A stretch of DNA of 64,000 bases from Actinomycetota bacterium (GTDB lineage: Bacteria; Actinomycetota; UBA4738; JACQTL01): the NCBI GenBank assembly GCA_036394995.1, contig DASWED010000125.1, positions 341 to 64,340 on the forward strand, in the 5' to 3' direction. The position numbers and the translations under genes are program-made. The notes beneath the pieces were generated by a model that was not told the origin of the DNA, did not search any database, and worked only from the letters and a program-made list of their open reading frames with translations. This document shows, one piece after another, positions 9,500-62,004 of the stretch; the first letter of the stretch is position 1, and each line of letters begins with the position of its first letter.

Positions 9500-9546
9500 C
9501 GCCAGCCCAGGCCCGGCCCCGAACCTCGATCGCCCGCCTGTGACGG

Positions 9547-11088
9547 TCAGTCGTCGTTGCTGTGGTCGTGGCCCTTGTGGTCGTCGCCCGAGTCCGGCGA
9601 CGGAGGGGGCGAGGCCTGCATGGCAGCGGCCAGGTCCCGGAGCTCTCGGTCGAGCGTCTTCGCCACGTCGGGGGCCACCTTCCCGTGCTCGGCGTCGTCG
9701 GCCAACTTGTCCCTGGCGCTCTGGATGTCATCGAGGGCCTTGTCCAGATCCCCCTCGGTGTAGTGCTTGAGGGCGTCGTCCACCTTCCTTCCGATCTCGT
9801 CGGCGGTGTGATGGTCGATGGACTCCGAGGCGAGTGTGGCCGTGATCGCGCGGACCGCATCCGGGACCGACGGGATGGTCGGCTCGGGTGGAGAGGGCGA
9901 GGGCGACGGGCTGGGACTGGGCGACGGGCTCGGTGACGGACTGGGCGACGGGCTGGGCGGGGTCGGGCTGGCCCGGTGGCTGGGCGGCGCGGTCCGGTGG
10001 GCGGGGCCCGTCGGTCCGCTCTTCGGTTCTCCCGACAGCAGCGCCGGGAGGAACGCCACCGCGAGCAGCGCCAGCAGGACCAGCAGCACCACCACCGCCG
10101 GCCACCACCGCCGGCGCCGGGGAGGGGCCCGGTGGGCGGGGATCGATCTGGACGGCCCGGTGAGGGCCGCGGGGACCTCCGCGGTGGGGAGCCGGGCCGT
10201 GGAATCGGGGAGCACCACCGTGGGCCCCGAGCCCACGCTCCCCGCCCCGCCGCTCGCCGCGGCGAACGGCGCCAGGGCCGCCGCCATCTCCGCCGCGCCC
10301 TGATAGCGGGCCGCCCGGTCCTTGGCCAGGGCCCGCATGACCACGGCCTCCAGCCCGGGCGTGATGCCACGGCGCTGCGAGGACGGCGGCGGCGGGTCCT
10401 CGTGGATGTGCTTGAACGCGAGCGCCACCGGTGAGTCGGCGGCGAAGGGCGCCCGGCCGGTGAGCATCTCGTACAGCACGACCCCCAGCGCATACACGTC
10501 GGACCGCCCGTCCACCCGCTCTCCCTGGGCCTGCTCGGGCGACAGGTACGCCGCCGTCCCGAACACCGTGGCGGTCTGGGTCAGCGTGTGCGCCGAGACC
10601 ACCCGAGCGATCCCGAAGTCCATCACCTTCACCCGGCCGGAGTCGGTGAGCATGATGTTCGCCGGCTTCACGTCCCGATGGACCAGGCCCTCCGCGTGCG
10701 CGAACGCGAGCGCCTCGGCGACGCTGGCCGCGATGGCGGCGGCAAGCTCCGGGGGCAGGGGGCCGTCCTCGGCCACCACCTGGGCCAGGGTCCGGCCGTG
10801 CACGTACTCCATGACGATGTAGTGCACGCCGTCGTCGGAGCCGGTGTCGAACACCGACACGACGCCGTGATGGTTGAGTCCCGCGGCGGCCCGGGCCTCC
10901 CGGCGGAAGCGGTCCACGAACGTCGGGTCCGCGGCCTGTTCGGTCTCGAGGACCTTGATGGCCACGGTGCGACCGAGGACCGTGTCGGTCCCCCGGTACA
11001 CACGGGCCATCCCGCCCCGGCCGATCTCGGCCTCCACCCGGTAGCGCCCGGACAGGATGCGGTCTCCGGTGAGCATGCGCCCATTCAT
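9547..11088 (-). CDS. Transmembrane Ser/Thr protein kinase (Hanks type) with an (SP)n linker and a helical His/Asp-rich ectodomain
   Basis: RYRVEAEIGRGGMARVYRG..VAIKVL..HRDVKPANIML..VMDFGIAR..GTAAYLSPEQ. TM helix WWPAVVVLLVLLALLAVAF. The C-terminus ends GDDHKGHDHSNDD. I chose start ATG 11088 (GGAGAG upstream). Confidence 0.9.
   Translation of the reverse strand: MNGRMLTGDRILSGRYRVEAEIGRGGMARVYRGTDTVLGRTVAIKVLETEQAADPTFVDRFRREARAAAGLNHHGVVSVFDTGSDDGVHYIVMEYVHGRTLAQVVAEDGPLPPELAAAIAASVAEALAFAHAEGLVHRDVKPANIMLTDSGRVKVMDFGIARVVSAHTLTQTATVFGTAAYLSPEQAQGERVDGRSDVYALGVVLYEMLTGRAPFAADSPVALAFKHIHEDPPPPSSQRRGITPGLEAVVMRALAKDRAARYQGAAEMAAALAPFAAASGGAGSVGSGPTVVLPDSTARLPTAEVPAALTGPSRSIPAHRAPPRRRRWWPAVVVLLVLLALLAVAFLPALLSGEPKSGPTGPAHRTAPPSHRASPTPPSPSPSPSPSPSPSPSPSPSPSPPEPTIPSVPDAVRAITATLASESIDHHTADEIGRKVDDALKHYTEGDLDKALDDIQSARDKLADDAEHGKVAPDVAKTLDRELRDLAAAMQASPPPSPDSGDDHKGHDHSNDD
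9889..9966. repeat. Low-complexity 6-bp periodic repeat encoding (Ser-Pro)n inside the kinase gene
   Basis: The plus strand reads ggcgag ggcgac gggctg ggactg ggcgac gggctc ggtgac ggactg ggcgac gggctg. It encodes PSPSPSPSPSPSPSPSPSPSPSPP on the minus strand. Confidence 0.7.
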
Positions 11089-15060: not shown

Positions 15061-17052
15061 CTACTCGTTCGGGGTGGCGGTGATGGAGGGGCCCGGGACC
15101 CTGGAAGCCTGGCCGTTCCGCGCGGCTTCGTCGGGATCGGGGATGGGAACGGATCCCTCGACGTAGTCCATGAGGTCCTTCCCCTCGATGACCTCGCTGG
15201 CCATCAACAGCTTGGACAGGCGGTCCAGCAGGTCGCGGCGCTCCTCCAGGATCTCGGTGGCCCGGCGATGGGCCTCCGTGAGCAGACGGCTGATCTCGGT
15301 GTCCACGCGGTCGGCCAGCGAGCCGGAGAGGCGGGGGGCCTCACCCGGGAACAGGAGCTGGCCCTCGCCGCCCCGGAACCCGTCGCGCCCCAGCGAGATC
15401 GGCCCGATCTCGTCGCTCATCCCGTACTCGACGACCATGGCCCGGGCGATCTCGGTGGCCTTCTCCAGGTCGTTCTGCGCGCCGGTGGAGACCTGCTTGA
15501 ACACGATCTCCTCGGCCGTCCGGCCGCCCAGGAGGATGACCAGGCGGTCGGCCAGCTCGGGTTCGGTGAGCAGGTAGCGGTCCTCCAGGGGGCGCTGCAT
15601 GGTCATGCCCAGGGCGGCCGCGCCGCGGGGGATGATCGACACCCGGTGTACGGGGTCGCCCGTGGGAACGGTGAGCGCCACCAGCGCATGGCCCATCTCG
15701 TGGACGGCCACCACCACGCGGTCCCGTTCGCTCATCACCCGGCTCTTGCGCTCCAGGCCGGCCACCACGCGGTCGATGGCCTCCTCGAGGTCCCGGCCCT
15801 CCACGGAGTTCTTCTCCGCCCGCGCGGCGAGGAGCGCCGCCTCGTTCACCACGTTCGCCAGGTCCGCCCCGGTGAACCCCGGCGTCCGCGACGCGATGAC
15901 CCGGAGGTCCACGGAGGGGTCGAGGGCCACCCCCCGGGCGTGGACCCGCAGGATGGCCTCCCGGCCCTTGAGGTCCGGACGGTCCACCACCACCTGCCGG
16001 TCGAACCGGCCCGGCCGGATGAGCGCGGGGTCCAGGACGTCGGGCCGGTTCGTGGCGGCCATGATGATCACGCCGCCCTTGGCGTCGAACCCGTCCATCT
16101 CGACCAGGAGCTGGTTGAGGGTCTGTTCGCGTTCGTCGTGGGACCCGAGCGACCCGCCGACCCCGCCCATGCGGCCCTTGCCGATCGTGTCGATCTCGTC
16201 CAGGAACACCAGGGTCGGAGCCTTCTCCTTGGCCTGCTGGAACAGCTCACGCACCCTGGCCGCGCCGAGCCCCACGAACATCTCGACGAACTCCGAGCCG
16301 GACATGAAGAAGAACGGCACGTTGGCCTCGCCGGCCACGGCCCGGGCCAGGAGGGTCTTTCCGCACCCCGGCGGGCCCAGCAGCAGGACGCCCTTCGGGA
16401 TCCGTCCCCCCAGGCGCTGGTACTTCTTGGGGTTCTTCAGGAAGTCGACGATCTCCTTGAGCTCCTCCACGGCCTCGTCCAGCCCGGCCACGTCGCCGAA
16501 GGTCGTCTTCAGCTCCTTGCGGTCGTAGATCCGGACCTTGTTCCGCCCGAGGTTCAGCGCGTTGGCCCCGGCCGCGCCCATGCGCCGGAACAGCAGGAAG
16601 TACAGACCCCCGATGAGGAGCAACATGAAGAAGAGCTGTCCGAGGATGGGACCCCATCCGCTGGGATGGCTCCCGCGGTACACGATGTCGTGGCTCTGCA
16701 GGAGGCGGAAGATGGAGTCGTCCCCGGTTGGCCGAACGGCCACGATCCGCTGCGTCGCTCCTTCCTTGTGGACCACCCCCTGCACGGAGGTCTCACCCAC
16801 GTCGACATCGGTGAGCACCTTGGGCCCCTGCTCCACGTACCCGATGAACTGCGAGTACGGGACGGTCTTTTCGCCCGTCGGGATCTGCTGGAACAGCAGC
16901 CAGCCGACGAGCAGGATCACGGCGAGCCACAGCAGCAGGCGGTTCCGGCGGCTCCGTTCCGTCTGGGGGGTGCCGCCCGAGCCGCCGCCGGGCTCGTACC
17001 CGGACAGGCCGCCTCGCCGGGGCCGGTTGGGGGGTCGGTCGTCGTTGGCCAT
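15061..17052 (-). CDS. ftsH: ATP-dependent zinc metalloprotease FtsH
   Basis: ATG 17052 inside the 1287-aa track ORF. Two TM helices, Walker [16 protein letters not shown], the SRH region [20 protein letters not shown], and zinc site HEMGHAL. Confidence 0.95.
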
Positions 17053-17160
17053 GGGAAATCCATCTTCCCACACGCCTGTCGCTCCGCCGGGGTCCGGTCG
17101 TCCGGTGGCAGGCCGGCGCCCATCGCGTAACGAAGGCCCGCGGGCGGGGGACCCCACACG

Positions 17161-18774
17161 GTGAGCAGGCGAACGAAGGCCCGGGCATCGCCGGCCTCCA
17201 CACCACCGAAGGGCGATCCCGAGGCAACGGCCGGCAGGGGGGCGGGCGTCGCCGCGGGCCTGACCAGCGCCGCGGCGGCCATGGGCCTGTCCGCCGTCCT
17301 GCACACCGTGGTCCCCGCGGTGCCGTTCCCGCCGGTGGCGGTGGCCCAGGAGGTCATCCGGCTGGCCCCCGGGAGCGTGGACGCCTTCTTCATCGACCGC
17401 TTCCAGCACGGGGCCCGCCCCGCGGCGGTCATCGGCTCGGGTTTGGGGTTCCTGGTGGCGGCGGCGCTGCTGGGCCTGGCGCTCCCGTGGCTCCGGCGCA
17501 CGCTGGGCGGTCGGACGGCCCCGGCCGCCACGATCCTGGCGCTCCCGCTGTTCGCCGTGGCGATCGTGACGTACCGGCGGATGACGGGGTGGGTCCCACT
17601 GCCCGTCTACGCGATCGCCCTCGTCCCGGTGTTCGCCGCCTCGGTGGCGTTCGGCGTGGCCGCGTTCCGGCGCATCGCCTCGGGCCGGGCCCGGCAGGAC
17701 CAGGACGTGATGCGGCGGGAGGTCGTGCGGGCCATGTGGGTCGGCGGCGCCGGCTTCCTGGTGGGGTGGGCCAGCCTGGGCCGGTTCGTCTTCCGGCGGC
17801 CCGACCCCGGCCACCAGCGGCTGGCCGCGCCCCGCGTCTCGCCGACGAAGCCGCCGGGCCCGGCGCCGGCCGACGCCGCGTTCGGCCGCATCCGCGGACT
17901 GACGCCGGAGATCACGTCGAACGACCGGTTCTACACGGTGAACGAGGAGCTGTTCCCGCCGGACATCGACCCCGAGACCTGGAGGCTCCGGATCGGGGGC
18001 CTGGTGGACCGGCCGTTCGAGCTCACGTACCAGCAGCTGAAGGCGCTCCCCGCCGTGGAGCAGTTCATGACGCTCGAGTGCATCAGCAACAAGATCGGAG
18101 GCCACCTCATCTCCACCGCGAAGTGGGTGGGAGTGCCCCTGCCCGACCTCCTGGACCGGGCCGGGGTGCGCGACGGCGCCCTGGAGGTGGTGTCGCGGTC
18201 CGTGGACGGGTACTCCGACTCGATCCCGGTGGACAAGGCCATGGAGCGAACCACGATCATCGCGTTCGGCATGAACGGCCATCTCCTGCCCCGGGCCCAC
18301 GGGTTCCCCGCCCGGATCCTGGTCCCCGGCTACTACGGGATGAAGCAGCCCAAGTGGCTGGGGTCCGTCGAGGTGGTGGACCGCCCCCATCGCGGCTACT
18401 GGGAGCAGCGGGGATGGATCAAGGAGGCCGTGGTGAGGACGATGTCCCGGATCGACGTCCCCCTTTCCGGCGCGTCGGAGACCGGCGAGGTCACGGTCGC
18501 CGGGATCGCGTTCGCCGGGGATCGGGGGATCTCGCGAGTGGAGATCTCCACCGACGGCGGCCGGACGTTCGCCGACGCCGAGCTGAAGACCGCGCTCTCC
18601 GAGTTCACGTGGCGGATGTGGCGCCACTCGTTCAGGCCCGATCCGGGCCGGGTCACGATCCTCGTCCGGGCCACCGACGGCGGGGGAGCCACCCAGACCT
18701 CCGCTGTCACCCCGCCGGAGTACAGTGGGTCGACGGGATGGCACGGAGTGGAGGTCGTTGAGCAGGAGGGCTGA
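17161..18774 (+). CDS. Membrane-anchored molybdopterin-dependent oxidoreductase (sulfite-oxidase/MsrP-like fold)
   Basis: The N-terminal ~200 aa is polytopic and hydrophobic. Then [71 protein letters not shown]. Confidence 0.85.
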
Positions 18775-19396
18775 GGCGGAGCGGCGGACCCCCCGGGGGG
18801 TTTCGCCGGACGGGGTGTCCGACGGCTCCGGCGAGACCGAGGAGCAGCGGCGCGAGCGGTTCGAGCGCGACGCCATGCCCCTCATGCCGAGCCTGTACGC
18901 CGCCGCCCTGCGACTGACCCGCAACCCCGCCGACGCCGAGGACCTGGTCCAGGAGGCCTACCTGCGCGCCTACCGAGGGTTCGGGGGGTTCACCGAGGGG
19001 ACGAACCTCAAGGCGTGGATGTACCGCATCCTCACGAACACGTTCATCAACGCCTACCGCAAGCGTCAGCGCGAGCCGATCACGGTGCTGGAGGACGAGA
19101 TCCCCGACTGGTACCTGTACGACCGGCTGTCGCAGACGGGGGAGACCTCCTCGGCCGAGACCCAGGCCCTCGAGCACATCCCCGACGAGGACGTGCAGGC
19201 GGCGCTCGACTCGCTGCCGGAGGGATTCCGGATGGCGGTGTGGCTGGCCGACGTGGAGGGGTTCTCCTACAAGGAGATCGCCGGGATCCTGGGCATTCCC
19301 ATCGGAACCGTGATGTCGAGGCTCCACCGCGGAAGGAAATCCCTGGAGAAGATGTTGTGGGAGAAGGCACGGGAGCGAGGACTTGTCAGGGATTGA
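18725..19396 (+). CDS. sigH: ECF-type RNA polymerase sigma factor SigH/SigR
   Basis: [103 protein letters not shown] closely matches the mycobacterial SigH pattern. The start is ambiguous: GTG 18725 overlaps the upstream gene, and TTG 18758 after GGAGTGGAGG is an alternative. Confidence 0.9.
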
Positions 19397-32190: not shown

Positions 32191-32796
32191 ATGCGGAGGC
32201 CCGGCGTCGGCGACCCGGCGCCCGACGTGTCGTTGGTGAACCGGGGCGGCCGGCAGGTCCGGCTCTCGGCGCGGTGGCGGCGGAAGCCGCTGGTCGCGGT
32301 GTTCCTTCGGCACTTCGGGTGAACGTTCTGCCAGGAGCACGTCGTGCAGTTGCGCGACGACCGTGAGGGGTTCGATGCAGCCGGCGCCGGCATCACGCTG
32401 ATCGGCCTGGGCCCCCACACCCGCGCGCAGCTGTTCTGCGACGAACGCCATGTCCCCTTCGAGTGCCTGTCCGATCCGACCCAGGATGCCTACCGGGCAT
32501 TCGGCCTGGAACGGGGGACGAACCGCCAGCTGTTCGGCCCCCAGCTGATCCTGCGATACGCCCGCGCACTGCTCCGGCGTGACGTCGACGCGGCCAAGCT
32601 CTCCGGCGACGACTACCGCCAGATGCCGGGCACCTTCGTCATCGACCGTTCCGGCGTGATCCGCTACGCCCACCGCAACCGCGACGTCGCCGACAACCCC
32701 CCCAACGACGACGTCCTGGCCGCGCTGGCGGAGCTCCGGCGAGGTAGCGGTCGGGCCCGTGCGATACCCTCCGGGCACCAGGAGGACCCGCGATGA
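32191..32796 (+). CDS. Peroxiredoxin-like (AhpC/TSA, PRX_like2-type) protein read through an in-frame TGA at codon 44: candidate selenoprotein (UxxC)
   Basis: ATG 32191: MRRPGVGDPAPDVSLVNRGGRQVRLSARWRRKPLVAVFLRHFG-TGA(32320-32322)-TFCQEHVVQLRDD.. continues in the same frame as track ORF 32344..32796. Homologs carry G/W-C-x-x-C at this position. The conventional call would be the N-terminally truncated 32344..32796 only. Confidence 0.5.
32340..32359 (+). promoter_or_regulatory. SECIS-like hairpin 17 nt downstream of the in-frame TGA
   Basis: CGUCGUGC-AGUU-GCGCGACG: 8 bp including one G-U pair. The apical loop starts 25 nt after the UGA, with G at loop position 2. Confidence 0.35.
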
Positions 32797-42250: not shown

Positions 42251-42982
42251 CTACCCGGAGCGCTGCGGGCGAGGGGCCCTGGCGGCGCCGGGGTCGATGC
42301 CCTTCCAGACGGTCCGGACGAGCTCGATGGCGTAGTGCCCGTCGTCGAGGACGCCGCCGTCGCGGTGGGTGACCTGGCCCGCCTCTCCCACCAGCTCGAC
42401 GAGCACGGCATGGGCGAAGCACGTCCCCAACACGAGGCGGGCCGCCATCTCGGGGGAGGCGTGCCGGTCGATCCGGCCCAGTCGCTGCTCCGCCCGGAGG
42501 TACCCGGTGAGCGCCCGGATGGCCCGCAGCGGGCCGCCCTCCTTGCGCTCCCAGTCGGCCCGCTGGCCCTCGAGGAGCTCGGGATCCGCCAGGTGCGCGG
42601 CGATCATCGGCACGATCGACCGGTGGAACTCCAGCGCGGAGACCGCGAAGTCCTCCAGGGTGTCGCGGACCGTCCCCTGTCCGGCCCGGCCCGGGAGGGA
42701 GTCCACCATGGCCGCCCAGCCCTCGAACCGGCCCATGACGACGGCGTGGAGGAGGGCGTGCTTGTCCGGGAAGTAGCGGTAGATGCTCCCCTCGGCGCAC
42801 TCCGCCCGTACCGCGATGGCCCGGGTGGTGGCGGCGAGGACCCCTCGCTCCGCGATGATCTGGGCGGTGGCCTGGACGATGCGCTCGCGGGGCCCGAGGC
42901 GGGCGACGGCGACCGCACCGGGACCGCCCTGCGCCGCCTCGAGCGGGTCCCTCGGAGGAGTCTCAGTGGCCACCGGCGGCAT
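42251..42982 (-). CDS. TetR family transcriptional regulator
   Basis: RERIVQATAQIIAERGVLAATTRAIAVRAECAEGSIYRYFPDKHALL is a TetR HTH. Its start overlaps the MFS stop by 20 nt. Confidence 0.85.
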   Translation of the reverse strand: MPPVATETPPRDPLEAAQGGPGAVAVARLGPRERIVQATAQIIAERGVLAATTRAIAVRAECAEGSIYRYFPDKHALLHAVVMGRFEGWAAMVDSLPGRAGQGTVRDTLEDFAVSALEFHRSIVPMIAAHLADPELLEGQRADWERKEGGPLRAIRALTGYLRAEQRLGRIDRHASPEMAARLVLGTCFAHAVLVELVGEAGQVTHRDGGVLDDGHYAIELVRTVWKGIDPGAARAPRPQRSG

Positions 42983-44561
42983 CCTCTCCCGCCCCGACGT
43001 GGCTCCGGACGAAGATCGCCGACACCACCGAGGCGAGCACGGCGAATCCCACCGCGACCAGGAACGCGATGTGGATGGAGTGCGTGAACGAGACCCGGAC
43101 CGCCTCCTGGACGGTGTGCACGACCTGGGGCGAGGTCCCGGGAGGCGGCGCCACCGCGTGCGTCGAGCCCGACGCCGCAGCGGAGCCGGCCTTGTCCACG
43201 ATCGCGTTGGCCGTCCGGGTCGGGAACCCAGCGTCCACCAGGCGGGCCAGGAAGGACCGCTTGAACGACGATGTCACCACGGCTCCGAGCAGGGCGATAC
43301 CGAACACCCCCCCCAGCTCCCGGCTCGTGTTCGTGGCCGCCGAGGCCACGCCGGCCCGCTGGACGGGGACGCTCGCCATCACCGCGGCGGTCATCGGAGC
43401 CATGGTCGAGGCCATCCCGGCGCCCATGACCACCATGGAGGGCAGGATCACCCACATGTAGGACGAGTCCGGCTGGAGGCGAAGGGCCAGGGCCAGCCCG
43501 GTTCCCAGGGTCAGCGTCCCGAACGTCATGAACCACCGGGAGCCGAACCGGTCGGACAGCCGGCCGGCCACCGGCGCGATGAGGAGGATCATCACGGTGA
43601 ACGGGAACAGCCGGACCCCCGCGCCGATGGGGGAGAAGCCCCGGACGTTCTGGAGGTACAGCGACAGGAAGAACGTCGACCCGAACAGGGCGAAGAACAC
43701 CGAGGCCGCGACGACGTTCGCCGCGGCGAACGTGGGGATCCGGAAGAACGCCAGGGGGAGCATCGGGTACTCGCGGCGCGACTCGATGACGAAGAACGTC
43801 ACCAGCAGGACCGCCGACAGGGCGAACGAGCCGAGGATCACCCCGTCGGTCCATCCTCGATCGTTCCCCTCGATGAGGGCGTAGACCAGGAAGAACAGGC
43901 CGGAGGTCCCCGTGATCAGGCCCGGCGGATCGAGCCGGCGGGAGCGCGACTGGTCGCGGGATTCACGGACCACGATCCAGGCCAGGGTCGCGCCGACGAA
44001 CCCGATCGGGACGTTCACGAAGAAGATGCTCTGCCAGCTGACGTGTTCGACCAGCCACCCCCCGATGAGCGGACCCAGGGCGATGGCCAGCCCCGACATG
44101 GCGGCCCAGATGCCGATGGCCGCCCCCCGCTCCTTGCCGGTGAACGTCGCCGTGATGATCGAGAGCGTCCCGGGCAGGAGCATCGCCGCCCCGAGTCCCT
44201 GGACGGCCCGGAACGCGATGAGCTGGTCGATGCTCTGGGACAGCCCGCAGGCCAGTGAGCCCAGGACGAACACGCCCAGGCCGGTCAGGAAGAAGCGCTT
44301 GCGCCCGTACAGGTCGCCGAGCGCGCCGCCGGTGAGCATGAACGACGCGAACGTCAGGGTGTAGGCGTCGATGATCCACTGGAGCCCCGACACGCCGGAT
44401 CCCAGCTTGTCCTGGATCGTGGGCAGCGCCACGTTCACCACGAGGTTGTCGAGCATGGGCATGAACAGCCCGAACACCATCGCGACGAGGACCCACCACT
44501 TCCGTCCGTCGGCCGGCGGGGCCGTCGCGTCCGATGAGGTCCTCTGCAAGGTCCTCGCCAT
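42963..44561 (-). CDS. MFS transporter, DHA2 (EmrB/QacA, 14-TMS) drug-efflux type
   Basis: ATG 44561 after AAGGAGGA. WWVLVAMVFGLFMPMLDNLVVNVALPTI..GALGDLYGRKRFF..FRAVQGLGAAM. Confidence 0.85.
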   Translation of the reverse strand: MARTLQRTSSDATAPPADGRKWWVLVAMVFGLFMPMLDNLVVNVALPTIQDKLGSGVSGLQWIIDAYTLTFASFMLTGGALGDLYGRKRFFLTGLGVFVLGSLACGLSQSIDQLIAFRAVQGLGAAMLLPGTLSIITATFTGKERGAAIGIWAAMSGLAIALGPLIGGWLVEHVSWQSIFFVNVPIGFVGATLAWIVVRESRDQSRSRRLDPPGLITGTSGLFFLVYALIEGNDRGWTDGVILGSFALSAVLLVTFFVIESRREYPMLPLAFFRIPTFAAANVVAASVFFALFGSTFFLSLYLQNVRGFSPIGAGVRLFPFTVMILLIAPVAGRLSDRFGSRWFMTFGTLTLGTGLALALRLQPDSSYMWVILPSMVVMGAGMASTMAPMTAAVMASVPVQRAGVASAATNTSRELGGVFGIALLGAVVTSSFKRSFLARLVDAGFPTRTANAIVDKAGSAAASGSTHAVAPPPGTSPQVVHTVQEAVRVSFTHSIHIAFLVAVGFAVLASVVSAIFVRSHVGAGEDAAGGH

Positions 44562-44624
44562 CCGTGTCCTCCTTGCAGTCTCGTGGGGGCGCCTCGCCCC
44601 GCATCCCGCCGCCGGTGGCGCGAC

Positions 44625-44660
44625 TGAGTGAGCGCTCACTCATTGTGAGTGCGCACTCAC
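44625..44660. promoter_or_regulatory. Two adjacent perfect palindromes (operator candidates) in the divergent MFS-TetR / MarR-MFS intergenic region
   Basis: TGAGTGAGC|GCTCACTCA (44625-44642, 18 bp) and GTGAGTGC|GCACTCAC (44645-44660, 16 bp). They share the half-site GAGTG(A)GC. Confidence 0.55.
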
Positions 44661-56324: not shown

Positions 56325-58841
56325 CTAGATCTGGGCCTCCGACGTGATCCTGTCGTTCTCGACGACCTTCTGACAGCCGGTCGCCCCCGGCAGCGGGGTC
56401 TGGTTGGAAAGGAAGACGCCGGTCATCTTGGTGGCCCGCCACACGCCGGCCACCACGTCGGCCTCCTTGACCCGGACCTCGAGCTTCTGGGAGAAGCGGG
56501 CCTTGCCGTCCCCGCAGTCGAACGTCTGGTTGATGATCTCGCGGTACGTCCCGTCCGCCGCCGGCTGGAGCTGGTTCCGGGAGATCCCGTCCGCCGACTC
56601 GCGGATGAGGGTCAGCCCGCAGCCGGTCGCCTCCCGGCAGTTGGGGACGAAGACGTACAACCGCTGGAGATCGTCGCCGACCTTCTTGTTGGGGACGTTG
56701 ACCAGCTTGGTCACGTGCAGCGTCGTGTCCCACGTTCCCAGCACGGCGCCCTCCGCGATTGGCGGGGGCTGCTCGCCGGGCTGGAGCGGCTGAGGCGAGG
56801 GCAGCTTCCGCAGGGAGCCGTTCACGCCGTCGGTCTCGTCCACCTTCGGGCACCCGGGCACGTTCTGGCCGGGCGGCGGCTCCCAGACGAAGTGGAACGC
56901 ACCCGTGAACGAGGTGGCCTGTGGGACGCCGACGACCCGTTGCACGTCGCTCACGTGCACGGTGAAGGTCCCGACGGTCTCCTCGTATTCGAAGGTCGTC
57001 GCGCCCGTGGACGAGTCCACGCACCGGAGCGGCGAGCTGGCCTGTCCGCTGACGGTCCTGCCGACGAACGGCCCGGTCGCGTCGATCTTCTCCCCGGTCC
57101 GGCTCTCGCCGATCAGCGCGAGGTCGCACGGCCGGGCCGCGCAGTCCGTGGAGAGGATCCAGCTGCTGCTGCGGCTCTGCCCCACCTTCACGCCCCGGAC
57201 CGTCGTGCTGAGGTGTTTCACGGTGACCTTCACGTTGTAGGAGCCGGACAGCGCCGTGGGCGGGGACAGCTCGGACTCGGTCGGGGACGGCGGTGCCGGC
57301 GAGGCCGGCGAGGCGGGCGGTGACGAGTTCGCGGGTGTCGTCGGCGGCGCCACCGCCGACGCGGTGGGACCGGTTGCCGAGGGCGGGGCGGACGACGCGA
57401 CCGCCTCGGGCTTCGAGCCCCCGCCCCCGAGCGCGATCGCGGCGATCGCGGCGATGACCAGGAGGGCGACGACCGCGACGCCGATCAGAAGGCCGCGCCG
57501 GGGCGCCCGCTGGCCCGCGGCCGCGACCGGTGGCTCGGCTCGCCGGGGCCTGGGCCTGCGCTGGTCCTTGGCGTGCCGGCCACCCGGCAGCGTCGGCCCC
57601 CCTCGACCGGCCGGGGGACGCTCGGGCGGCAGGAGCCGGGTGGGGTCGCCGATCCCGTCGTACAACCCCGGCTCGCGGGTCTGGCCGTGCTCGGCGAGGA
57701 TCCGGGGCGTTCGCTCGGTCGCCACGAACTCCTCGACGAGTGGATCCAGCCGGCCCCGGTGCATCGCCCCGAGGAACCCCTCCAGGCCATCTCGCGGGAT
57801 GCAGGCGTAGGCCACACGTCCCCGGCAGCGCGCCTCGAACACGACGAAGTCCCACGTGATGAATGTCGGGCGGACGTACAGCGACCCGCTGCGGTACGGG
57901 CGCAGGGCGTCGCCGAACGGTCCCGGGCGTGGGGACGCGCTCACCGGGTCGACGTCCACCGCGAGCGGCGCCTCCGACACGAGCGGCAGCCGACCGACGA
58001 CGAGTGAGTCCAGGAGCGTCACGTCAGACGCGGCGCCGTCGGATCCCAGGTGGTCCCGGGCGGCTTCCCACGCGGCCTCGAGGACCTGCTGTCCGGTGAC
58101 CGCCCGGCCGGTCCGTGTCCGCATCGCGGCCTCGCGTCCCTCGCGGTAGAGGTCCCCGCCGAACGCAGCGCTGCCGACGAATGTCCCGTATCGACGAACC
58201 GCGGGTTCGGTTCGAGCCCGCAGGGCCGGAGGGAGCGCGCGCCGAGCCGCCCGGTCGCCCGCCACCGCAGCGGCGCAGGCGCGCGCCGCCCCGACGGCGA
58301 AGGCGCTCGCGGCGGCGAGCAGCGGACCGTCGACGTGTTCGACCCCCAGCTCCGTGCGCGACGGACGCGGCCGCACCAGCATCCCGGGTGTCTCGGCCCG
58401 GCCGGTCAGCAGCATCATGGCGGGGGCGAACCGCCGTACGAACAGCCGGCAGACGCGGTCGTTCAGGCGGTCGGGCATGGCCACCGAGACGTGCGTCGAA
58501 TACCCCTCGAGCCGCATCTCGGGCGGGATCGCCCCGGCGAGCTCCTCGAGACCGGTCCGGACGAGTCCGCGTGCCGCGACGGTGAATCCGGGCCGCACGG
58601 GGACCGGCGGGATCGCGATCTCGGCCTCGGCCCCGTCGGCGGTGATGACGCCGCCCCACGCGCAGCGGAGGGCCAGCGGATCTCCCGGATCCACACGGCG
58701 CCCGGCCACGGGCAGCGTCGGGGCCAGCCAGCGGAAGTCGACGGGCTCCCGGCCCAGCCTGACGGTGTACTCCTGTTCGACGCCGAGCAGGGACGCGGGC
58801 TCCGGGTGCGCCACCCCGGAGCGGGGATCGCCGGCCTTCAC
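56325..58841 (-). CDS. Large single-pass membrane protein: cytoplasmic GCS2/glutamine-synthetase-fold-like (amidoligase-like) domain, TM helix, Pro/Ser linker, duplicated 4-Cys ectodomain
   Basis: Track ORF 56325..58913. I prefer GTG 58841, 7 nt after the upstream small-ORF stop. LGVEQEYTV, GAEAEIAIPP and EGYSTHVSVAMP resemble carboxylate-amine ligase motifs. TM helix LLIGVAVVALLVIAAIAAIAL. Two ~140-aa repeats each carry 4 Cys. Confidence 0.7.
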   Translation of the reverse strand: MKAGDPRSGVAHPEPASLLGVEQEYTVRLGREPVDFRWLAPTLPVAGRRVDPGDPLALRCAWGGVITADGAEAEIAIPPVPVRPGFTVAARGLVRTGLEELAGAIPPEMRLEGYSTHVSVAMPDRLNDRVCRLFVRRFAPAMMLLTGRAETPGMLVRPRPSRTELGVEHVDGPLLAAASAFAVGAARACAAAVAGDRAARRALPPALRARTEPAVRRYGTFVGSAAFGGDLYREGREAAMRTRTGRAVTGQQVLEAAWEAARDHLGSDGAASDVTLLDSLVVGRLPLVSEAPLAVDVDPVSASPRPGPFGDALRPYRSGSLYVRPTFITWDFVVFEARCRGRVAYACIPRDGLEGFLGAMHRGRLDPLVEEFVATERTPRILAEHGQTREPGLYDGIGDPTRLLPPERPPAGRGGPTLPGGRHAKDQRRPRPRRAEPPVAAAGQRAPRRGLLIGVAVVALLVIAAIAAIALGGGGSKPEAVASSAPPSATGPTASAVAPPTTPANSSPPASPASPAPPSPTESELSPPTALSGSYNVKVTVKHLSTTVRGVKVGQSRSSSWILSTDCAARPCDLALIGESRTGEKIDATGPFVGRTVSGQASSPLRCVDSSTGATTFEYEETVGTFTVHVSDVQRVVGVPQATSFTGAFHFVWEPPPGQNVPGCPKVDETDGVNGSLRKLPSPQPLQPGEQPPPIAEGAVLGTWDTTLHVTKLVNVPNKKVGDDLQRLYVFVPNCREATGCGLTLIRESADGISRNQLQPAADGTYREIINQTFDCGDGKARFSQKLEVRVKEADVVAGVWRATKMTGVFLSNQTPLPGATGCQKVVENDRITSEAQI

Positions 58842-58848
58842 GAGGGCG

Positions 58849-59043
58849 TCAGGCCTGGGGGCCCGTGGGGCCCGCCGAGCTGCCGGAGTCGTCTTCCTCG
58901 TCGTCCGCGCCACCCGTGGTCAGGCCGCGAACCGTCTGGAAATCGGAGATCAGCTGCATGACTCGATCGCGCAGCCCGGGCTCCTGCTGCTGCGCCATGG
59001 CCTTGAGCTGCTCGAGCACCTCGACGTTGGCCTTCTCGCCCAT
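58849..59043 (-). CDS. 64-aa helical protein with an acidic, disordered C-terminal tail
   Basis: ATG 59043 after GAGGAGAGGA, high GC3. MGEKANVEVLEQLKAMAQQQEPGLRDRVMQLISDFQTVRGLTTGGADDEEDDSGSSAGPTGPQA. Confidence 0.55.
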   Translation of the reverse strand: MGEKANVEVLEQLKAMAQQQEPGLRDRVMQLISDFQTVRGLTTGGADDEEDDSGSSAGPTGPQA

Positions 59044-59774: not shown

Positions 59775-60017
59775 GTGGCGCTTCGACTGGTCGATCGCCT
59801 CGACAGCGACCTCCCCGACCAGCTCCACCGGCTCTACCTGGCCGAATGGTGGACGCACCGCCGGGACGCGGACGACGTCCGCCGCATGCTGGAGGGCTCG
59901 GACGTCGTGATCGGGCTCGTGGACGAAGAGGGCGATCGGCCCCGAGTGGCCGGGTTCACCGCGGAACTCGGCGAGCTTCGGCTCATGCGCCGCGGGACGT
60001 CCCCCACGCCTCCGTGA
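59775..60017 (+). pseudogene. Possible N-terminal fragment of a GNAT acetyltransferase
   Basis: LHRLYLAEWWTHRRDADDVRRMLEGSDVVIGLVDEEGDRPRVAGF resembles the first ~60 aa of a GNAT. The acetyl-CoA-binding half is absent, and the ORF ends inside the UDG start. Confidence 0.3.
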
Positions 60018-60727
60018 GCCCCGCCGGACGAGCCCGTGCGCTGACGGCGCTGTCGAAGGAGGTGTCGACCTGCCGCCGGTGCCCCCGGCTGGTCGCCTGG
60101 CGCGAGGAGGTGGCCCGGACCAGGGTTGCCCGGTTCGCCGACGAGGAGTACTGGGGCCGGCCCCTCCCCGGCTTCGGCGACCCCGCGGCCCGGGTCCTGG
60201 TGGTGGGCTTGGCGCCCGCCGCCCACGGCGGGAACCGGACCGGCCGGATCTTCACCGGCGACCGGTCGGGCGACTTCCTGTTCGCGTCGCTGCACCGCAC
60301 CGGGTTCGCCAACCAGCCCGTCTCGACCCACCGGGGGGACGGCCTGCGCCTCAACGGCTTGTACGTGGCCGCGGCCGTTCGGTGCGCCCCGCCCGCCAAC
60401 CGCCCCACGCCCGCCGAGCGCGACGCGTGCCTCCCGTATCTGGCGCGTGAGCTCGGGCTGCTCACCGACGTCCGCGTCCTCGTCACGCTGGGCTCGTTCG
60501 CCTGGGACGCCGCGCTCCGGGCGCTCGCTTCGAGCGGCCATCGGGTCCGCCCCCGGCCGGAGTTCGGTCACCTGGCACAGGCGACGATCGGCCCCTACGT
60601 CCTCCTCGGTTCGTTCCACCCCAGCCAGCAGAACACCTTCACCGGGAAGCTCACGCCGCCCATGCTCGATGCCGCCTTCCGTCGGGCCGGTGAGATCGCG
60701 TTCGCAGGGTCGGAGGATAGGCCATGA
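60014..60727 (+). CDS. Uracil-DNA glycosylase, family 5 (UdgB-like)
   Basis: GTG 60014. CRRCPRLVAWRE..VLVVGLAPAAHGGNRTGRIFTGDRSGDFLF..LLGSFHPSQQN. Confidence 0.85.
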   Translation: MSPAGRARALTALSKEVSTCRRCPRLVAWREEVARTRVARFADEEYWGRPLPGFGDPAARVLVVGLAPAAHGGNRTGRIFTGDRSGDFLFASLHRTGFANQPVSTHRGDGLRLNGLYVAAAVRCAPPANRPTPAERDACLPYLARELGLLTDVRVLVTLGSFAWDAALRALASSGHRVRPRPEFGHLAQATIGPYVLLGSFHPSQQNTFTGKLTPPMLDAAFRRAGEIAFAGSEDRP

Positions 60728-61188
60728 TGACGCCGTTTTCGTCGATGACCATGGCCGACATCCGACGCTACGCAGCCGAGGCCGACTCGACCGACACCCT
60801 CGGGCGACCGCGCCTCTCGGCGAGGCACCACCACGTGCCGGTGGACGGCCCGCCGTGGAACGGTTTCCCGGGCGAGGAGATCATGCCCGGCGAGCTGTTC
60901 CTGGGCGGCATCGCGACCTGCGCCGTCGAGCTGATCCAGATGTTCGCCCGCGACGATGGCATCCCCCTCGGCGTGGTGCACGTCGACGTCCGGGCCGAGG
61001 TGGATCGGGAGCGCCAGCCACACGTGGGGCGCACCGTGCTCAGCCGCGTCCGGATGCGAGTGGAGGTGCAGGGCGTGTCCGGCGCGACGGCCGAGGAGCT
61101 GGTCGAGCGCTTCAAGGCGAGGTGACCGCTGTTCGGCACGGTCGCGGTCGCGACCGACGTGGAGGTGGAAGTAGAGGCGAGGGGCTGA
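60724..61188 (+). CDS. OsmC/Ohr-family peroxidase-like protein read through an in-frame TGA at the conserved C-terminal Cys-Pro position: candidate selenoprotein
   Basis: Track ORF 60724..61125 ends ..ELVERFKAR-TGA(61123-61125). The same frame continues PLFGTVAVATDVEVEVEARG* with its stop at 61186-61188. E. coli OsmC reads KAKAGCPVSQVLKAEITLDYQL here. The first conserved Cys is present (GGIATCAVE). Confidence 0.5.
61139..61156 (+). promoter_or_regulatory. SECIS-like hairpin 13 nt downstream of the in-frame TGA
   Basis: CGGUCGC-GGUC-GCGACCG: a perfect 7-bp stem. The GGUC apical loop starts 20 nt after the UGA and resembles the G/U-containing loop of the E. coli fdhF SECIS. Confidence 0.35.
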
Positions 61189-61667
61189 GCGGGGGCTGCA
61201 CGATCACCGGCACGTCCGGTGACGATCACCTCGTCGGAACGTCCGGGCACGATCAGATCTGCGGCGGCAACGGGGACGACGTGATCGAGGGCAGGGGAGG
61301 CGGCGACGTGTTGATCGGGGGTCCCGGTGCCGACAGCCTGATCGGCGGCCTCGGCAACGACACCATGCTGGGTGGCCCCGGTCCGGACGTGCTCCTCGGC
61401 GGCCGGGGCGCCGACTACGGCGAGGGTGGCCGGGGGAACGACTCGCTGAACGGCGGTCCGGGGGCGGAGGTCCTGGCCGGGCAGGAGGGCAACGACATCA
61501 TCCACGGCCAGGGCGGCAACGACCGGTGCCTCTCGGCATCCGACCTGGTGGAGGGCAACGACTCCGTGGACGGCGGTCCGGGGACCGACACGGGCGACGC
61601 CGACGACGGCGACGAGGTCATCAGCCTCGAGAACGAGTTCGCCGACGGGTCCTGCTTCGCCGAGTAG
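61185..61667 (+). pseudogene. RTX-type (GGxGxD nonapeptide) calcium-binding repeat ORF with no canonical start codon or signal peptide
   Basis: ..GGCTITGTSGDDHLVGTSGHDQICGGNGDDVIEGRGGGDVLIGGPGADSLIGGLGNDTMLGGPGPDVLLGGRGADYGEGGRGNDSLNGGPGAEVLAGQEGNDIIHGQGGND... The upstream in-frame codons include no ATG, GTG or TTG before the repeats, only CTG at 61185. The first GTG, at ~61279, is already inside the repeats. Confidence 0.4.
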
Positions 61668-61709
61668 ACGCGGCGGAAACGGCGCGGCCTGCGTATGCTC
61701 GGAGGCGAG

Positions 61710-61982
61710 ATGGACATCGTCGGGCTTCTCATCATGGGGCTCATCGTGGGGGCCATCGGACGACTGGTCGTCCCGGGCCGCCACCGCCTCGGGTTCTTCG
61801 GGACCATGGCCGTCGGCGTGGCCGGCGCGTTCCTCGGCTGGTGGATCGGCAAGGGCATGGTCGGCGACCGCTACCACCTGCACCCGTGGATCTGGGCCAT
61901 CATCGGGTCGATCCTCGTCGTCCTGGTGGTGAGCGCGCTCACACGGGGCCGCTCCGGCCGGCCGCTGAGCGGTCGCTGGTAG
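61710..61982 (+). CDS. GlsB/YeaQ/YmgE (transglycosylase-associated) family stress membrane protein
   Basis: ATG 61710 after GGAGG. MDIVGLLIMGLIVGAIGRLVVPGRHRLGFFGTMAVGVAGAFLGWWIG. Confidence 0.8.
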   Translation: MDIVGLLIMGLIVGAIGRLVVPGRHRLGFFGTMAVGVAGAFLGWWIGKGMVGDRYHLHPWIWAIIGSILVVLVVSALTRGRSGRPLSGRW

Positions 61983-62004
61983 CGCTCCTGCGCATCGCCG
62001 GCCG

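What the first reader, a model, noticed from the sequence alone, without database searches (positions are those of the whole stretch)
60724..61188. Second TGA-for-Cys: OsmC-like gene continues in frame past TGA at the conserved Cys-Pro motif, with a GGUC-loop hairpin downstream
The OsmC/Ohr-like ORF has its first conserved Cys in GGIATCAVE. It ends ..VERFKAR at TGA 61123-61125, but the same frame continues PLFGTVAVATDVEVEVEARG to a stop at 61186-61188. This restores the family's C-terminal strand, and the TGA falls on the invariant second Cys (E. coli OsmC: KAKAG-C-PVSQVLKAEITLDY). A perfect 7-bp hairpin with loop GGUC starts 13 nt after the TGA (61139-61156), and the loop begins 20 nt after the UGA. 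The geometry and loop are reminiscent of the E. coli fdhF SECIS. Two unrelated thiol-peroxidase-type genes 29 kb apart, each with TGA exactly at a catalytic Cys and a properly spaced hairpin, are hard to explain as two random nonsense mutations.
Basis: partly seen in the sequence, partly recalled or inferred. Interest (0 to 1): 0.78.

Follow-up and report, generated by a model that had tools for sequence, protein, structure and literature searches.

The report
Selenocysteine-containing OsmC/Ohr-like peroxidase gene
The 'stop' codon inside this small antioxidant-enzyme gene almost certainly encodes selenocysteine: it belongs to a widespread family, seen mostly in soil metagenomes, that annotation pipelines cut short, and the selenium sits at a different catalytic position from the only OsmC-like selenoprotein catalogued so far.

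Summary
The OsmC-family ORF at 60724 meets TGA at 61123-61125. The frame then continues for 20 codons to a true stop at 61186-61188. A perfect 7-bp hairpin with loop GGUC lies at 61139-61156.

Comparative data settle the interpretation. Across 82 sequences (81 related loci plus the window), this column is TGA 76 times and TGC 6 times, and never TAA or TAG. The tail after the TGA is under protein-level purifying selection. A confident model of a natural Cys-form homolog shows the tail forming the last helix and strand of the OsmC/Ohr fold. All 65 unique TGA-form sequences aligned carry the hairpin, with an invariant GU in the loop, and no Cys form has it. Paired positions covary through double synonymous changes, with at least 12 independent switches at one pair.

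This is therefore a SECIS-directed UGA-recoding gene, almost certainly a selenoprotein. Sec replaces the second, resolving Cys of the Ohr/OsmC active site. The catalogued OsmC-like selenoprotein (UxxT, COG1765) has Sec at the first Cys, and this protein scores far below the cutoff of NCBI's model for that family.

The window holds no selA, selB, selC or selD, and the rest of the genome could not be searched. I rate it a new variant of a known kind.

The parts
60712..60717 (+). Shine-Dalgarno-like GGAGGA, 6 nt upstream of the ATG at 60724
   Evidence: Read directly from the sequence. The ATG overlaps the TGA stop (60725-60727) of the upstream UDG-family gene as ATGA.
60724..61188 (+). Full selenoprotein CDS: 154 codons (Sec at codon 134) plus the terminator. 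OsmC/Ohr-like.
   Evidence: Pfam OsmC scores 51.1 bits over profile positions 3-100 of 100 only when the tail is included. Relatives show the same read-through architecture, 76 TGA and 6 TGC among 82 sequences. Many homologs start at the position of M10 (60751), so the exact start is not certain.
60919..60921 (+). TGC codon for Cys66, the first conserved Cys, which aligns to the peroxidatic Cys of Ohr
   Evidence: Invariant in alignments A1, A2 and A4. It aligns with the Cys of 'AGYAAC' in solved Ohr structures. Cp is assigned in PMC5962072.
61123..61125 (+). In-frame UGA, inferred Sec134, at the resolving-Cys column
   Evidence: The column is TGA in 76 and TGC in 6 of 82 sequences, never TAA or TAG. 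TGA is found in 66 of 66 unique sequences, while the true terminators are mixed (TAG 32, TGA 29, TAA 18). It aligns to the Cys of 'vCPYS' in Ohr structures.
61126..61185 (+). Coding tail PLFGTVAVATDVEVEVEARG, which forms the last helix and terminal beta-strand of the fold
   Evidence: Pairwise synonymous:nonsynonymous codon differences are 9218:5544 in the tail against 9941:22004 in the 20 codons upstream, and the tail frame never contains a stop. In the AlphaFold2 model of Cys-form homolog P0049 the equivalent segment is helix 128-136 plus strand 139-147 at pLDDT about 95-97. The model superposes on OsmC/Ohr structures over about 145 columns.
61139..61156 (+). Bacterial SECIS hairpin: stem 61139-61145 / 61150-61156, loop G-GU-C at 61146-61149 (G61147 and U61148 are the invariant GU)
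   Evidence: Present at the same register in 65 of 65 unique TGA forms. 93.3% of cells are paired and the covariation score is 0.267 against 0.113 in shuffles (0 of 500 reach it); slid registers give 0.07 or less. The loop-flanking pair is A-U in 37 and G-C in 28, never unpaired. On a tree it switched at least 12 times. The hairpin is absent from all 6 TGC forms.
61186..61188 (+). True terminator (TGA)
   Evidence: TGA is also the commonest ordinary terminator in the window, ending 30 of 45 predicted genes.
32191..32796 (+). Companion candidate selenoprotein gene (SelL-related redox protein, U-x-x-C). UGA at 32320-32322; hairpin 32340-32347 / 32352-32359 with loop AGUU.
   Evidence: The translation reads ...FLRHFG*TFCQEHV.... 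NCBIfam NF040769 scores 153.6 bits against a cutoff of 120 with U written as C. The hairpin is shown. This is supporting evidence that the organism recodes UGA.

Best explanation
The gene encodes a 154-residue Ohr/OsmC-fold thiol peroxidase in which UGA 61123-61125 is translated as selenocysteine.

Decoding. As the ribosome reaches the UGA, the mRNA hairpin 13 nt downstream acts as a bacterial SECIS. Its loop is N-GU-N', with the GU exposed and the flanking positions able to pair. It recruits SelB-GTP-Sec-tRNASec, which competes with RF2. Translation then continues for 20 more codons that build the last helix and strand of the fold.

Chemistry. Cys66 on the central helix, with the conserved Glu57 and a conserved first-loop Arg (R34 or R28), attacks the hydroperoxide as the peroxidatic residue. 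Sec134 occupies the position of the resolving Cys. It condenses with Cys66-SOH to give an intramolecular selenenylsulfide, which a dithiol reductant (lipoylated protein or thioredoxin) then reduces.

What is shown: the UGA/Cys homology, coding selection downstream of the UGA, the SECIS structure and its covariation, the fold, and the alignment of the Sec column to Cr.

What is inferred: that the inserted residue is Sec, that the genome carries selABCD, which of the two residues attacks the peroxide first, and the identity of the substrate and reductant.
For: 1. The sequence is as described.
2. Among 78 database homologs, most are about 124 aa and end at ...RFKG[RK]. Full-length ones read R-C-PLYG.
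3. Across 82 sequences (81 loci plus the window), the column is TGA 76 times and TGC 6 times. TGA is found in 66 of 66 unique sequences, whereas the true terminators are TAG 32, TGA 29 and TAA 18.
4. The tail codons wobble synonymously (Pro CCG/CCA/CCC; Leu CTC/CTG/CTT/TTG; Tyr TAC/TAT; Gly GGC/GGA/GGT/GGG). The synonymous:nonsynonymous count is 9218:5544.
5. The hairpin is conserved in 65 of 65 unique TGA forms, with G25 and U26 invariant. Pair 24-27 is AU 37 / GC 28 with none unpaired, and pair 18-33 is GC 50 / CG 14. All shuffle and slid-register controls are exceeded. On a tree built from the upstream protein, these pairs switched at least 12 and at least 4 times.
6. The Cys forms lack the hairpin even where the peptide is the same: L062 encodes VAVAT with GCC codons.
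7. The AlphaFold2 model of a natural Cys homolog has mean pLDDT 92.4, the tail is structured, and it matches OsmC/Ohr crystal structures with TM 0.7-0.85.
8. In a profile alignment to Ohr structures, C66 falls on Cp and the Sec column on Cr. The roles of Cp and Cr are taken from PMC5962072 and PMC5384416.
9. A second gene in the window has UGA at the U of a UxxC motif in a recognised SelL-related family, with an A-GU-U hairpin.
10. The identical ORF with its TGA occurs on 15 independent contigs, so it is not a sequencing error.
11. TGA is the normal terminator of 30 of 45 window genes.
12. In a census of cluster representatives, 29 end at the column, 20 continue with Cys, and none continue with any other residue.
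Against: - No selA, selB or selD and no tRNA-Sec were found in the 64-kb window. None lie within +/-10 kb of the gene on other contigs, and no tRNA was found in 45 related loci. The rest of the genome could not be searched.
- No Rfam family matches the hairpin.
- Its folding energy is not better than shuffled sequence in this GC-rich DNA.
- Sec usually replaces the primary nucleophile, so Sec at the position of the resolving Cys is less common. This leaves the order of the chemical steps uncertain.
- The identity of the inserted residue (Sec or Cys) cannot be read from DNA.
Confidence: 0.85

Rival explanations
1. UGA plus SECIS is decoded here, but as cysteine rather than selenocysteine. The agent would be a tRNA-Sec-like tRNA-Cys (tRNA-ReC, selC*). 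Alternatively, the site is facultative: Sec when selenium is available, Cys otherwise.
For: tRNA-ReC has been reported to decode UGA as Cys when a downstream SECIS is present (Vargas-Rodriguez et al. 2018, as cited in PMC13582414). DNA evidence cannot distinguish Sec from Cys at a SECIS-dependent UGA. No selA or selD was seen in the window.
Against: Keeping a costly UGA+SECIS across at least 66 distinct sequences merely to insert Cys is hard to explain, because a single change to TGC does the same job, and lineages that made that change lost the hairpin. According to PMC13582414, tRNA-ReC was detected alongside canonical tRNA-Sec in the genomes highlighted there. The second UGA gene in the window belongs to a selenoprotein-related family.
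Confidence: 0.06
2. It is a selenoprotein, but the roles of the two residues are inverted. Sec134 would be the residue that attacks the peroxide, and Cys66 would resolve the selenenic acid.
For: In most thiol-peroxidase selenoproteins, Sec replaces the primary nucleophile; for example, the published OsmC-like form has Sec at the first Cys. In Ohr/OsmC, Cp and Cr condense to an intramolecular disulfide within one active site (PMC5962072), so a residue at the Cr position may be able to reach the substrate.
Against: The elements that activate the first Cys are retained: Cys66 and Glu57 are invariant, and there is a conserved first-loop Arg (R34 invariant, R28 nearly so). This fits Cys66 remaining the peroxidatic residue.
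Confidence: 0.2
3. The TGA is a genuine stop. Either the 133-aa truncated protein is the product, or the gene is a pseudogene with a nonsense mutation.
For: All annotation pipelines call the 124-133-aa form, and NCBI names it 'OsmC family protein'. RF2 termination at some frequency is expected at any Sec UGA.
Against: The column is TGA in 66 of 66 unique sequences and never TAA or TAG. The tail shows protein-level purifying selection and never contains a stop. The hairpin covaries. The tail supplies the last helix and strand of the fold. Homologs have Cys at the column.
Confidence: 0.02
4. TGA is reassigned genome-wide to a sense codon (Trp or Gly, as in genetic codes 4 and 25).
For: None specific. 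It is considered only because there are two in-frame TGAs in one window.
Against: TGA terminates 30 of 45 predicted genes in the window, including this gene and the overlapping upstream UDG gene. TGA also terminates 29 of 79 family members. Homologs carry Cys, not Trp or Gly, at the column.
Confidence: 0.005

Closest known systems
OsmC-like selenoprotein of marine metagenomes (Sargasso Sea 2005, GOS 2008; COG1765/YhfA type, motif UxxT; NCBIfam NF041052 'OsmC-related (seleno)protein')
   Same: Same Pfam superfamily (PF02566), a small redox protein with two conserved Cys positions, one of which is encoded by UGA followed by a bacterial SECIS.
   Different: The published form has Sec at the FIRST Cys and keeps Cys at the second...AGIGF-U-LLTQL... 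and ...AKQG-C-FAENL (supplement of PMC1088965). The window protein has Cys at the first position (C66) and Sec at the SECOND. Pairwise BLASTP finds no significant similarity (E = 16). A weak hhalign match puts the marine Sec on the C66 column. NF041052 scores 29.6 bits against a cutoff of 95. The reviews of 2022 and 2026 list only the UxxT form.
Ohr/OsmC Cys-based hydroperoxide reductases (e.g. Xylella fastidiosa Ohr: Cp Cys61, Cr Cys125, Arg19, Glu51)
   Same: The fold is the same (Foldseek TM 0.7-0.85 to 2onf, 1lql, 6mjn, 3eer, 1usp, 1zb9 and others). There are two redox positions, 68 residues apart here against about 60 in the family. A conserved Glu lies upstream of Cp and a conserved Arg in the first loop. 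The motif at the second position is C/U-P-[LIY].
   Different: The resolving position is Sec instead of Cys. The sequence falls below the NCBIfam cutoffs for both the Ohr subfamily (28.3 against 88.85) and the OsmC subfamily (15.4 against 85.8), so it is a separate clade of the superfamily. No biochemistry exists for it.
E. coli fdhF SECIS (SelB-binding hairpin)
   Same: A hairpin immediately downstream of the UGA within the coding sequence, with the identical apical loop GGUC and a GU dinucleotide (verifies the fdhF sequence).
   Different: The loop lies 2 nt further from the UGA (+24 to +27 against +22 to +25). The stem sequence is unrelated, and no bulged U is evident. About 57% of family members use loop AGUU instead.
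tRNA-ReC / selC* system (UGA plus SECIS decoded as Cys)
   Same: It would use the same mRNA signals, UGA plus a downstream SECIS (PMC13582414, citing Vargas-Rodriguez 2018).
   Different: It inserts Cys, not Sec. Nothing here indicates its presence, and it could not be tested.

Membership tests
Bacterial SECIS-dependent selenoprotein gene | In-frame UGA aligned with Cys in homologs (Sec/Cys pair) | tested here: met
   The column is TGA in 76 and TGC in 6 of 82 sequences. Protein homologs read R-C-PLYG. In the census, 29 representatives are cut at the column, 20 have Cys, and none have any other residue.
Bacterial SECIS-dependent selenoprotein gene | Coding conservation continues downstream of the UGA | tested here: met
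   Synonymous:nonsynonymous differences in the tail are 9218:5544. No stop occurs in the tail frame in 66 of 66 sequences. Tail length is conserved at about 20-21 codons.
Bacterial SECIS-dependent selenoprotein gene | Stem-loop shortly downstream of the UGA with conserved G(U) in the apical loop, supported by covariation | tested here: met
   65 of 65 unique TGA forms have it, with GU invariant. The covariation score is 0.267 against 0.113 in shuffles (0 of 500 reach it). One pair switched at least 12 times independently. It is absent from the Cys forms.
Bacterial SECIS-dependent selenoprotein gene | selA, selB, selC (tRNA-Sec) and selD in the same genome | not testable with these tools
   Not present in the 64-kb window or within +/-10 kb on other contigs.
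Bacterial SECIS-dependent selenoprotein gene | Selenium actually incorporated into the protein | not testable with these tools
   Requires 75Se labelling or mass spectrometry.
Ohr/OsmC superfamily (Pfam PF02566) | Pfam OsmC domain above the gathering score over the full profile | tested here: met
   51.1 bits against 27.5, covering profile positions 3-100 of 100 with the tail.
Ohr/OsmC superfamily (Pfam PF02566) | OsmC/Ohr three-dimensional fold | tested here: met
   Tested on the natural Cys-form homolog P0049, which is 51% identical. Mean pLDDT is 92.4, and Foldseek E-values are 1e-9 to 1e-6 with TM 0.7-0.85 to OsmC/Ohr structures.
Ohr/OsmC superfamily (Pfam PF02566) | Pair of catalytic Cys about 60 residues apart, plus catalytic Glu and Arg | tested here: met
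   C66 and U134 are 68 residues apart. E57 is invariant, R34 is invariant and R28 nearly so. C66 aligns to Cp and the Sec column to Cr. The assignment of the catalytic Arg rests on conservation and approximate alignment only.
Ohr subfamily (TIGR03561) / OsmC subfamily (TIGR03562) | Score above the NCBIfam curated cutoff | tested here: not met
   Ohr 28.3 bits against 88.85; OsmC 15.4 bits against 85.8.
Known OsmC-like selenoprotein (NF041052; UxxT, COG1765) | Score above the NF041052 cutoff | tested here: not met
   29.6 bits against a cutoff of 95.
Known OsmC-like selenoprotein (NF041052; UxxT, COG1765) | Sec at the first conserved Cys (UxxT), Cys retained at the second | tested here: not met
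   The window protein has Cys at the first position (T-C-A-V-E) and UGA at the second (U-P-L-F-G-T). The published sequence is the reverse (alignment).

The most novel reading that the evidence does not exclude
The UGA is a facultative Sec/Cys site. The same UGA+SECIS would be read as Sec by tRNA-Sec when selenium is available and as Cys by a tRNA-ReC-type tRNA when it is not. That would give this widespread Ohr/OsmC-like clade, seen mostly in soil metagenomes, a peroxidase whose resolving residue depends on selenium supply. Short of that, the better-supported novelty is that this is an uncatalogued selenoprotein family with Sec at the resolving, not the peroxidatic, position. I put that at roughly 0.55 probability of being both real and undescribed.
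Probability: 0.05. Interest if true: 0.75.

Novelty: new variant of a known kind. Interest (0 to 1): 0.55.

Why it matters
- Annotation. Most family members in public databases are recorded as C-terminally truncated 'OsmC family proteins' of about 124-133 aa. They lack the second catalytic residue and the last helix and strand of the fold. A profile that treats this column as Sec would correct all of them and add a marker for selenium use in soil Actinomycetota and their relatives.
- Enzymology. Sec at the resolving position of a two-residue peroxidase gives a natural system for asking what selenium contributes beyond peroxide attack. Possibilities include faster resolution of Cys-SOH (protection from over-oxidation) and a more readily reduced Se-S bond.
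- SECIS biology. The family supplies a clean natural data set of 65 variants of a minimal SECIS. The two positions flanking the invariant GU covary perfectly, which constrains models of how SelB recognises the loop.

Tried and rejected
- Rfam, at gathering thresholds over the whole window and at E <= 10 over 60000-62000: no SECIS or other relevant hit. To my knowledge Rfam has no general bacterial SECIS model, so this is uninformative.
- Single-sequence folding z-scores for both hairpin regions are not significant in 71% GC DNA, so structure alone was not used as evidence.
- ARAGORN reported one 'tRNA-Gly(ccc)' of 93 nt at 43165-43257 (-). I considered it as a possible aberrant tRNA-Sec and rejected it because it lies inside an MFS transporter ORF.
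- tRNA scans of 45 related loci found nothing.
- Gene neighbourhoods of three divergent family members share no conserved partner and no sel genes.
Model coordinates are not exposed, so the Cys-Cys distance could not be measured.
- My first regular expression for the Sec column was too strict, missing 65 of 81 loci, and was replaced.
- A first PDB profile search (A2) stopped before the tail because most rows were truncated. It was redone with read-through sequences.
- Genome-wide TGA reassignment and the pseudogene explanation were considered and rejected.
Full report
**1. The observation.** The + strand of the window carries an ORF from ATG 60724 to TGA 61123-61125. It encodes 133 aa ending ...VERFKAR. 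The same frame continues PLFGTVAVATDVEVEVEARG to a second TGA at 61186-61188. A GGAGGA lies 6 nt upstream of the ATG, and the ATG overlaps the stop of an upstream UDG-family gene as ATGA. Pfam OsmC (PF02566) scores 37.7 bits over profile positions 3-82 of 100 for the 133-aa form, and 51.1 bits over 3-100 of 100 for the read-through form. A perfect 7-bp hairpin (61139-61145 paired with 61150-61156, loop GGUC) starts 13 nt after the TGA.

**2. Chance.** The folding energy of the hairpin region is not unusual for 71% GC DNA (z = 0.46), so the hairpin alone proves nothing. I therefore scanned all 1119 TGA triplets on both strands. Six are followed, 10-22 nt downstream, by a stem of at least 6 bp with an N-GU-N tetraloop. 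Shuffles give 1.6 +/- 1.0. Only two of the six have stems of at least 7 bp and a coding signature (GC3 >= 0.87) on both sides of the TGA.

**3. Homologs decide the question.**
- A search of 5.8 billion proteins gave 78 relatives. Most are about 124 aa and end at ...RFKG[RK]. A few of 146-150 aa continue R-C-PLYG[ST]VA..., with Cys exactly at the TGA column.
- One genome locus and 80 metagenome loci, mostly from soil samples, were fetched. With the window, that makes 82 sequences. At this column 76 have TGA and 6 have TGC. None have TAA or TAG.
- Among 66 unique TGA sequences, the in-frame codon is always TGA. The real terminators about 21 codons later are mixed: TAG 32, TGA 29, TAA 18.
- The tail never contains a stop in its frame, and its codons vary mainly synonymously. 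The synonymous:nonsynonymous count is 9218:5544 in the tail, against 9941:22004 in the 20 codons upstream.
- The exact 133-aa ORF, with its TGA, occurs on 15 independently assembled contigs.
- In an unbiased HMMER census of 1.84 billion cluster representatives, there were 294 hits at E <= 1e-10. Of the 49 classifiable among the best 149, 29 end one residue before the column and 20 continue with Cys. None continue with anything else.
- The 133-aa form is therefore an artefact of gene calling, not the conserved product.

**4. The RNA element.** An ungapped alignment of 65 distinct 48-nt segments starting at the UGA (A3) shows the hairpin in the same register in every one.
- G25 and U26 (window 61147-61148) are invariant.
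- The stem (columns 17-23 with 28-34) plus the loop-flanking pair 24-27 is 93.3% paired. The covariation score is 0.267 against 0.113 +/- 0.011 in shuffles (0 of 500 reach it). All slid registers give 0.07 or less.
- Pair 24-27 is A-U in 37 sequences and G-C in 28, and is never unpaired. These are the third positions of an Ala and a Val codon, so both changes are synonymous.
- Pair 18-33 is G-C in 50 and C-G in 14. Pair 19-32 is G-C in 62 and A-U in 3.
- On a neighbour-joining tree built only from the 100 residues upstream of the UGA, pair 24-27 switched state at least 12 times, pair 18-33 at least 4 times, and Sec/Cys at least 4 times. The signal is therefore not inherited from a few ancestors.
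- The six Cys forms have no such hairpin. L062 encodes the same VAVAT peptide but with GCC codons that destroy the stem. This is what is expected when a SECIS decays after a Sec-to-Cys change.
- The E. coli fdhF UGA-SECIS sequence was verified in 5419 of 5426 E. coli genomes. Its loop is GGUC at +22 to +25, and here the identical loop is at +24 to +27.
- That SelB reads the exposed GU of this loop comes from my own knowledge of the fdhF and Moorella SECIS structures. It was not checked in a paper here.

**5. The protein.**
- A profile of 22 read-through sequences (A4) was aligned to solved structures. The family's invariant first Cys (C66) falls on the Cys of 'AGYAAC' in Ohr. The Sec column ('arCPly') falls on the Cys of 'vCPYS'.
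- In Ohr/OsmC, the first Cys on the central helix is the peroxidatic Cys (Cp, Cys61 in Xylella Ohr). The second is the resolving Cys (Cr, Cys125). Arg19 and Glu51 complete the catalytic triad (PMC5962072, PMC5384416).
- The family keeps an invariant Glu (E57) nine residues before C66, and a conserved Arg in the first loop (R34 invariant, R28 nearly so).
An AlphaFold2 model of the natural Cys-form homolog P0049 has mean pLDDT 92.4. The segment after the Cys forms helix 128-136 and strand 139-147 at pLDDT about 95-97. The model superposes on OsmC/Ohr crystal structures over about 145 columns with TM 0.7-0.85.
- Truncation at the UGA would remove both the second redox residue and the edge of the fold.

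**6. Mechanism proposed.** SelB-GTP-Sec-tRNASec binds the hairpin and decodes the UGA. The resulting peroxidase uses Cys66 as the peroxide-attacking thiolate. Sec134 then condenses with Cys66-SOH to form a selenenylsulfide, which a dithiol reductant reduces. The decoding signals, the fold and the residue positions are shown. The identity of the inserted residue, the order of the chemical steps, the substrate and the reductant are inferred. I put about 0.2 on a variant in which Sec134 is the first nucleophile and Cys66 resolves.

**7. What could not be shown.**
- The window has no selA, selB or selD (Pfam scans of 40 predicted proteins across four calls, 48, 49, 51, 52, together with the precomputed annotation).
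- It has no tRNA-Sec. The single ARAGORN call, a 93-nt 'tRNA-Gly' at 43165-43257, lies inside an MFS transporter ORF and is a false positive.
- No sel gene lies within +/-10 kb of three divergent family members. No tRNA was found in 45 related loci.
- The rest of the genome was out of reach.
- Indirect support for UGA recoding in this organism comes from the second gene at 32191-32796. It has UGA at the U of a UxxC motif, passes the NCBIfam cutoff for 'SelL-related redox protein' (153.6 bits against 120), and has an 8-bp hairpin with loop AGUU, the other loop type used by the OsmC family.
- Genome-wide TGA reassignment is excluded, because TGA terminates 30 of 45 predicted genes in the window.
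- Decoding of UGA+SECIS as Cys by a tRNA-ReC-type tRNA (Vargas-Rodriguez 2018, cited in PMC13582414) cannot be excluded from DNA. It is unlikely for a signal kept across so many lineages that could simply mutate to TGC.

**8. Comparison with what is known.**
- OsmC-like selenoproteins were described in the Sargasso Sea and GOS selenoproteomes. They are still the only OsmC entry in the reviews of 2022 and 2026: COG1765/YhfA type, PF02566, motif UxxT.
- The published sequence (AACY01145085) reads ...IVAGIGF-U-LLTQL... and ...AKQG-C-FAENL... Its Sec is at the first Cys and the second stays Cys.
- The window protein is the reverse. It shows no significant pairwise similarity to that sequence. A weak profile alignment puts the marine Sec on the C66 column. 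It scores 29.6 bits against the 95-bit cutoff of NCBIfam NF041052 'OsmC-related (seleno)protein'.
- It is also below the cutoffs for the Ohr and OsmC subfamilies.
- It works like a known kind of thing, a bacterial SECIS-dependent thiol-peroxidase selenoprotein of the OsmC superfamily. It is not a member of the catalogued OsmC-like selenoprotein family, and selenium is at a different catalytic position. I could not find this form in the literature I could search. Supplementary tables of large screens may still contain it.

**9. Verdict.** I rate it a new variant of a known kind and of moderate interest. It is a solid, testable and apparently uncatalogued selenoprotein clade that is widespread in public metagenomes (mostly soil) and usually mis-annotated as truncated, with Sec at the resolving position. 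It does not reveal a new principle of decoding.

Noticed in passing
window 32191-32796 (+); UGA 32320-32322; hairpin 32340-32359: This is a second candidate selenoprotein gene, reading ...FLRHFG-U-TFCQEHV... (a UxxC motif). With U written as C, it passes the NCBIfam cutoff for NF040769 'SelL-related redox protein' (153.6 bits against 120). An 8-bp hairpin with loop AGUU starts 17 nt after the UGA. No homolog survey was done for it.
   Followed up: partly
window 43165-43257 (-): ARAGORN calls a 93-nt 'tRNA-Gly(ccc)' here, but it lies inside an MFS_1 transporter ORF (42963-44639, -). It is almost certainly a false positive in GC-rich coding DNA.
   Followed up: yes
L062:619-666 (also L059, L066): These Cys (TGC) forms sit among Sec forms and keep a nearly identical tail peptide (CPIFGSVAVATPDV in L062). 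Synonymous GCG-to-GCC changes have destroyed the hairpin. They look like recent Sec-to-Cys conversions followed by SECIS decay.
   Followed up: partly
family alignment A4 (e.g. L007, L010, L025); window residues 31 and 48: Most family members carry two further conserved Cys, in GRVLC and NGCPGE. The window protein and its closest relatives lack them (GRPRLS, NGFPGE). Their role is unknown; they might form an extra redox or metal site.
   Followed up: no
window 61308-61667 (+): A small 119-aa ORF immediately downstream consists of RTX/hemolysin-type calcium-binding nonapeptide repeats (PF00353, E = 9e-22). One pipeline instead calls a 181-aa ORF whose start falls inside the OsmC gene and which therefore covers the OsmC tail region (L086).
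   Followed up: no
window 15061-18924 (-): This 1287-aa ORF has its AAA, AAA_lid_3 and Peptidase_M41 (FtsH-like) domains only in residues 846-1252. The first roughly 845 residues have no Pfam hit. It is either an unusually extended FtsH or an over-called start in GC-rich DNA.
   Followed up: no
window 56325-58913 (-) and 2367-3809 (-): Two large ORFs with a strong coding signature have no Pfam match (862 aa by my call, 838 aa in public gene calls; and 480 aa).
   Followed up: no
window 3-740 (-): An IS1595-family transposase (DDE_Tnp_IS1595 plus zinc ribbon) lies at the very start of the window.
   Followed up: no
proteins P0085, P0107, P0121, P0144, P0152, P0156 and others: More distant Cys-form relatives (motif RCPIYTT) occur in long proteins of 370-714 aa with two to four matched OsmC-like stretches. 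This suggests tandem or fused OsmC-like domains in another branch of the clade.
   Followed up: no
L089/L090 8811-9182 (-), and the gap 9183-10000: In a divergent family member's contig, a 123-aa CMD/AhpD-like gene lies about 800 bp upstream on the opposite strand, with no gene called in between. CMD/AhpD-like is a family that also has selenoprotein forms. It was not examined for a missed UGA extension.
   Followed up: no
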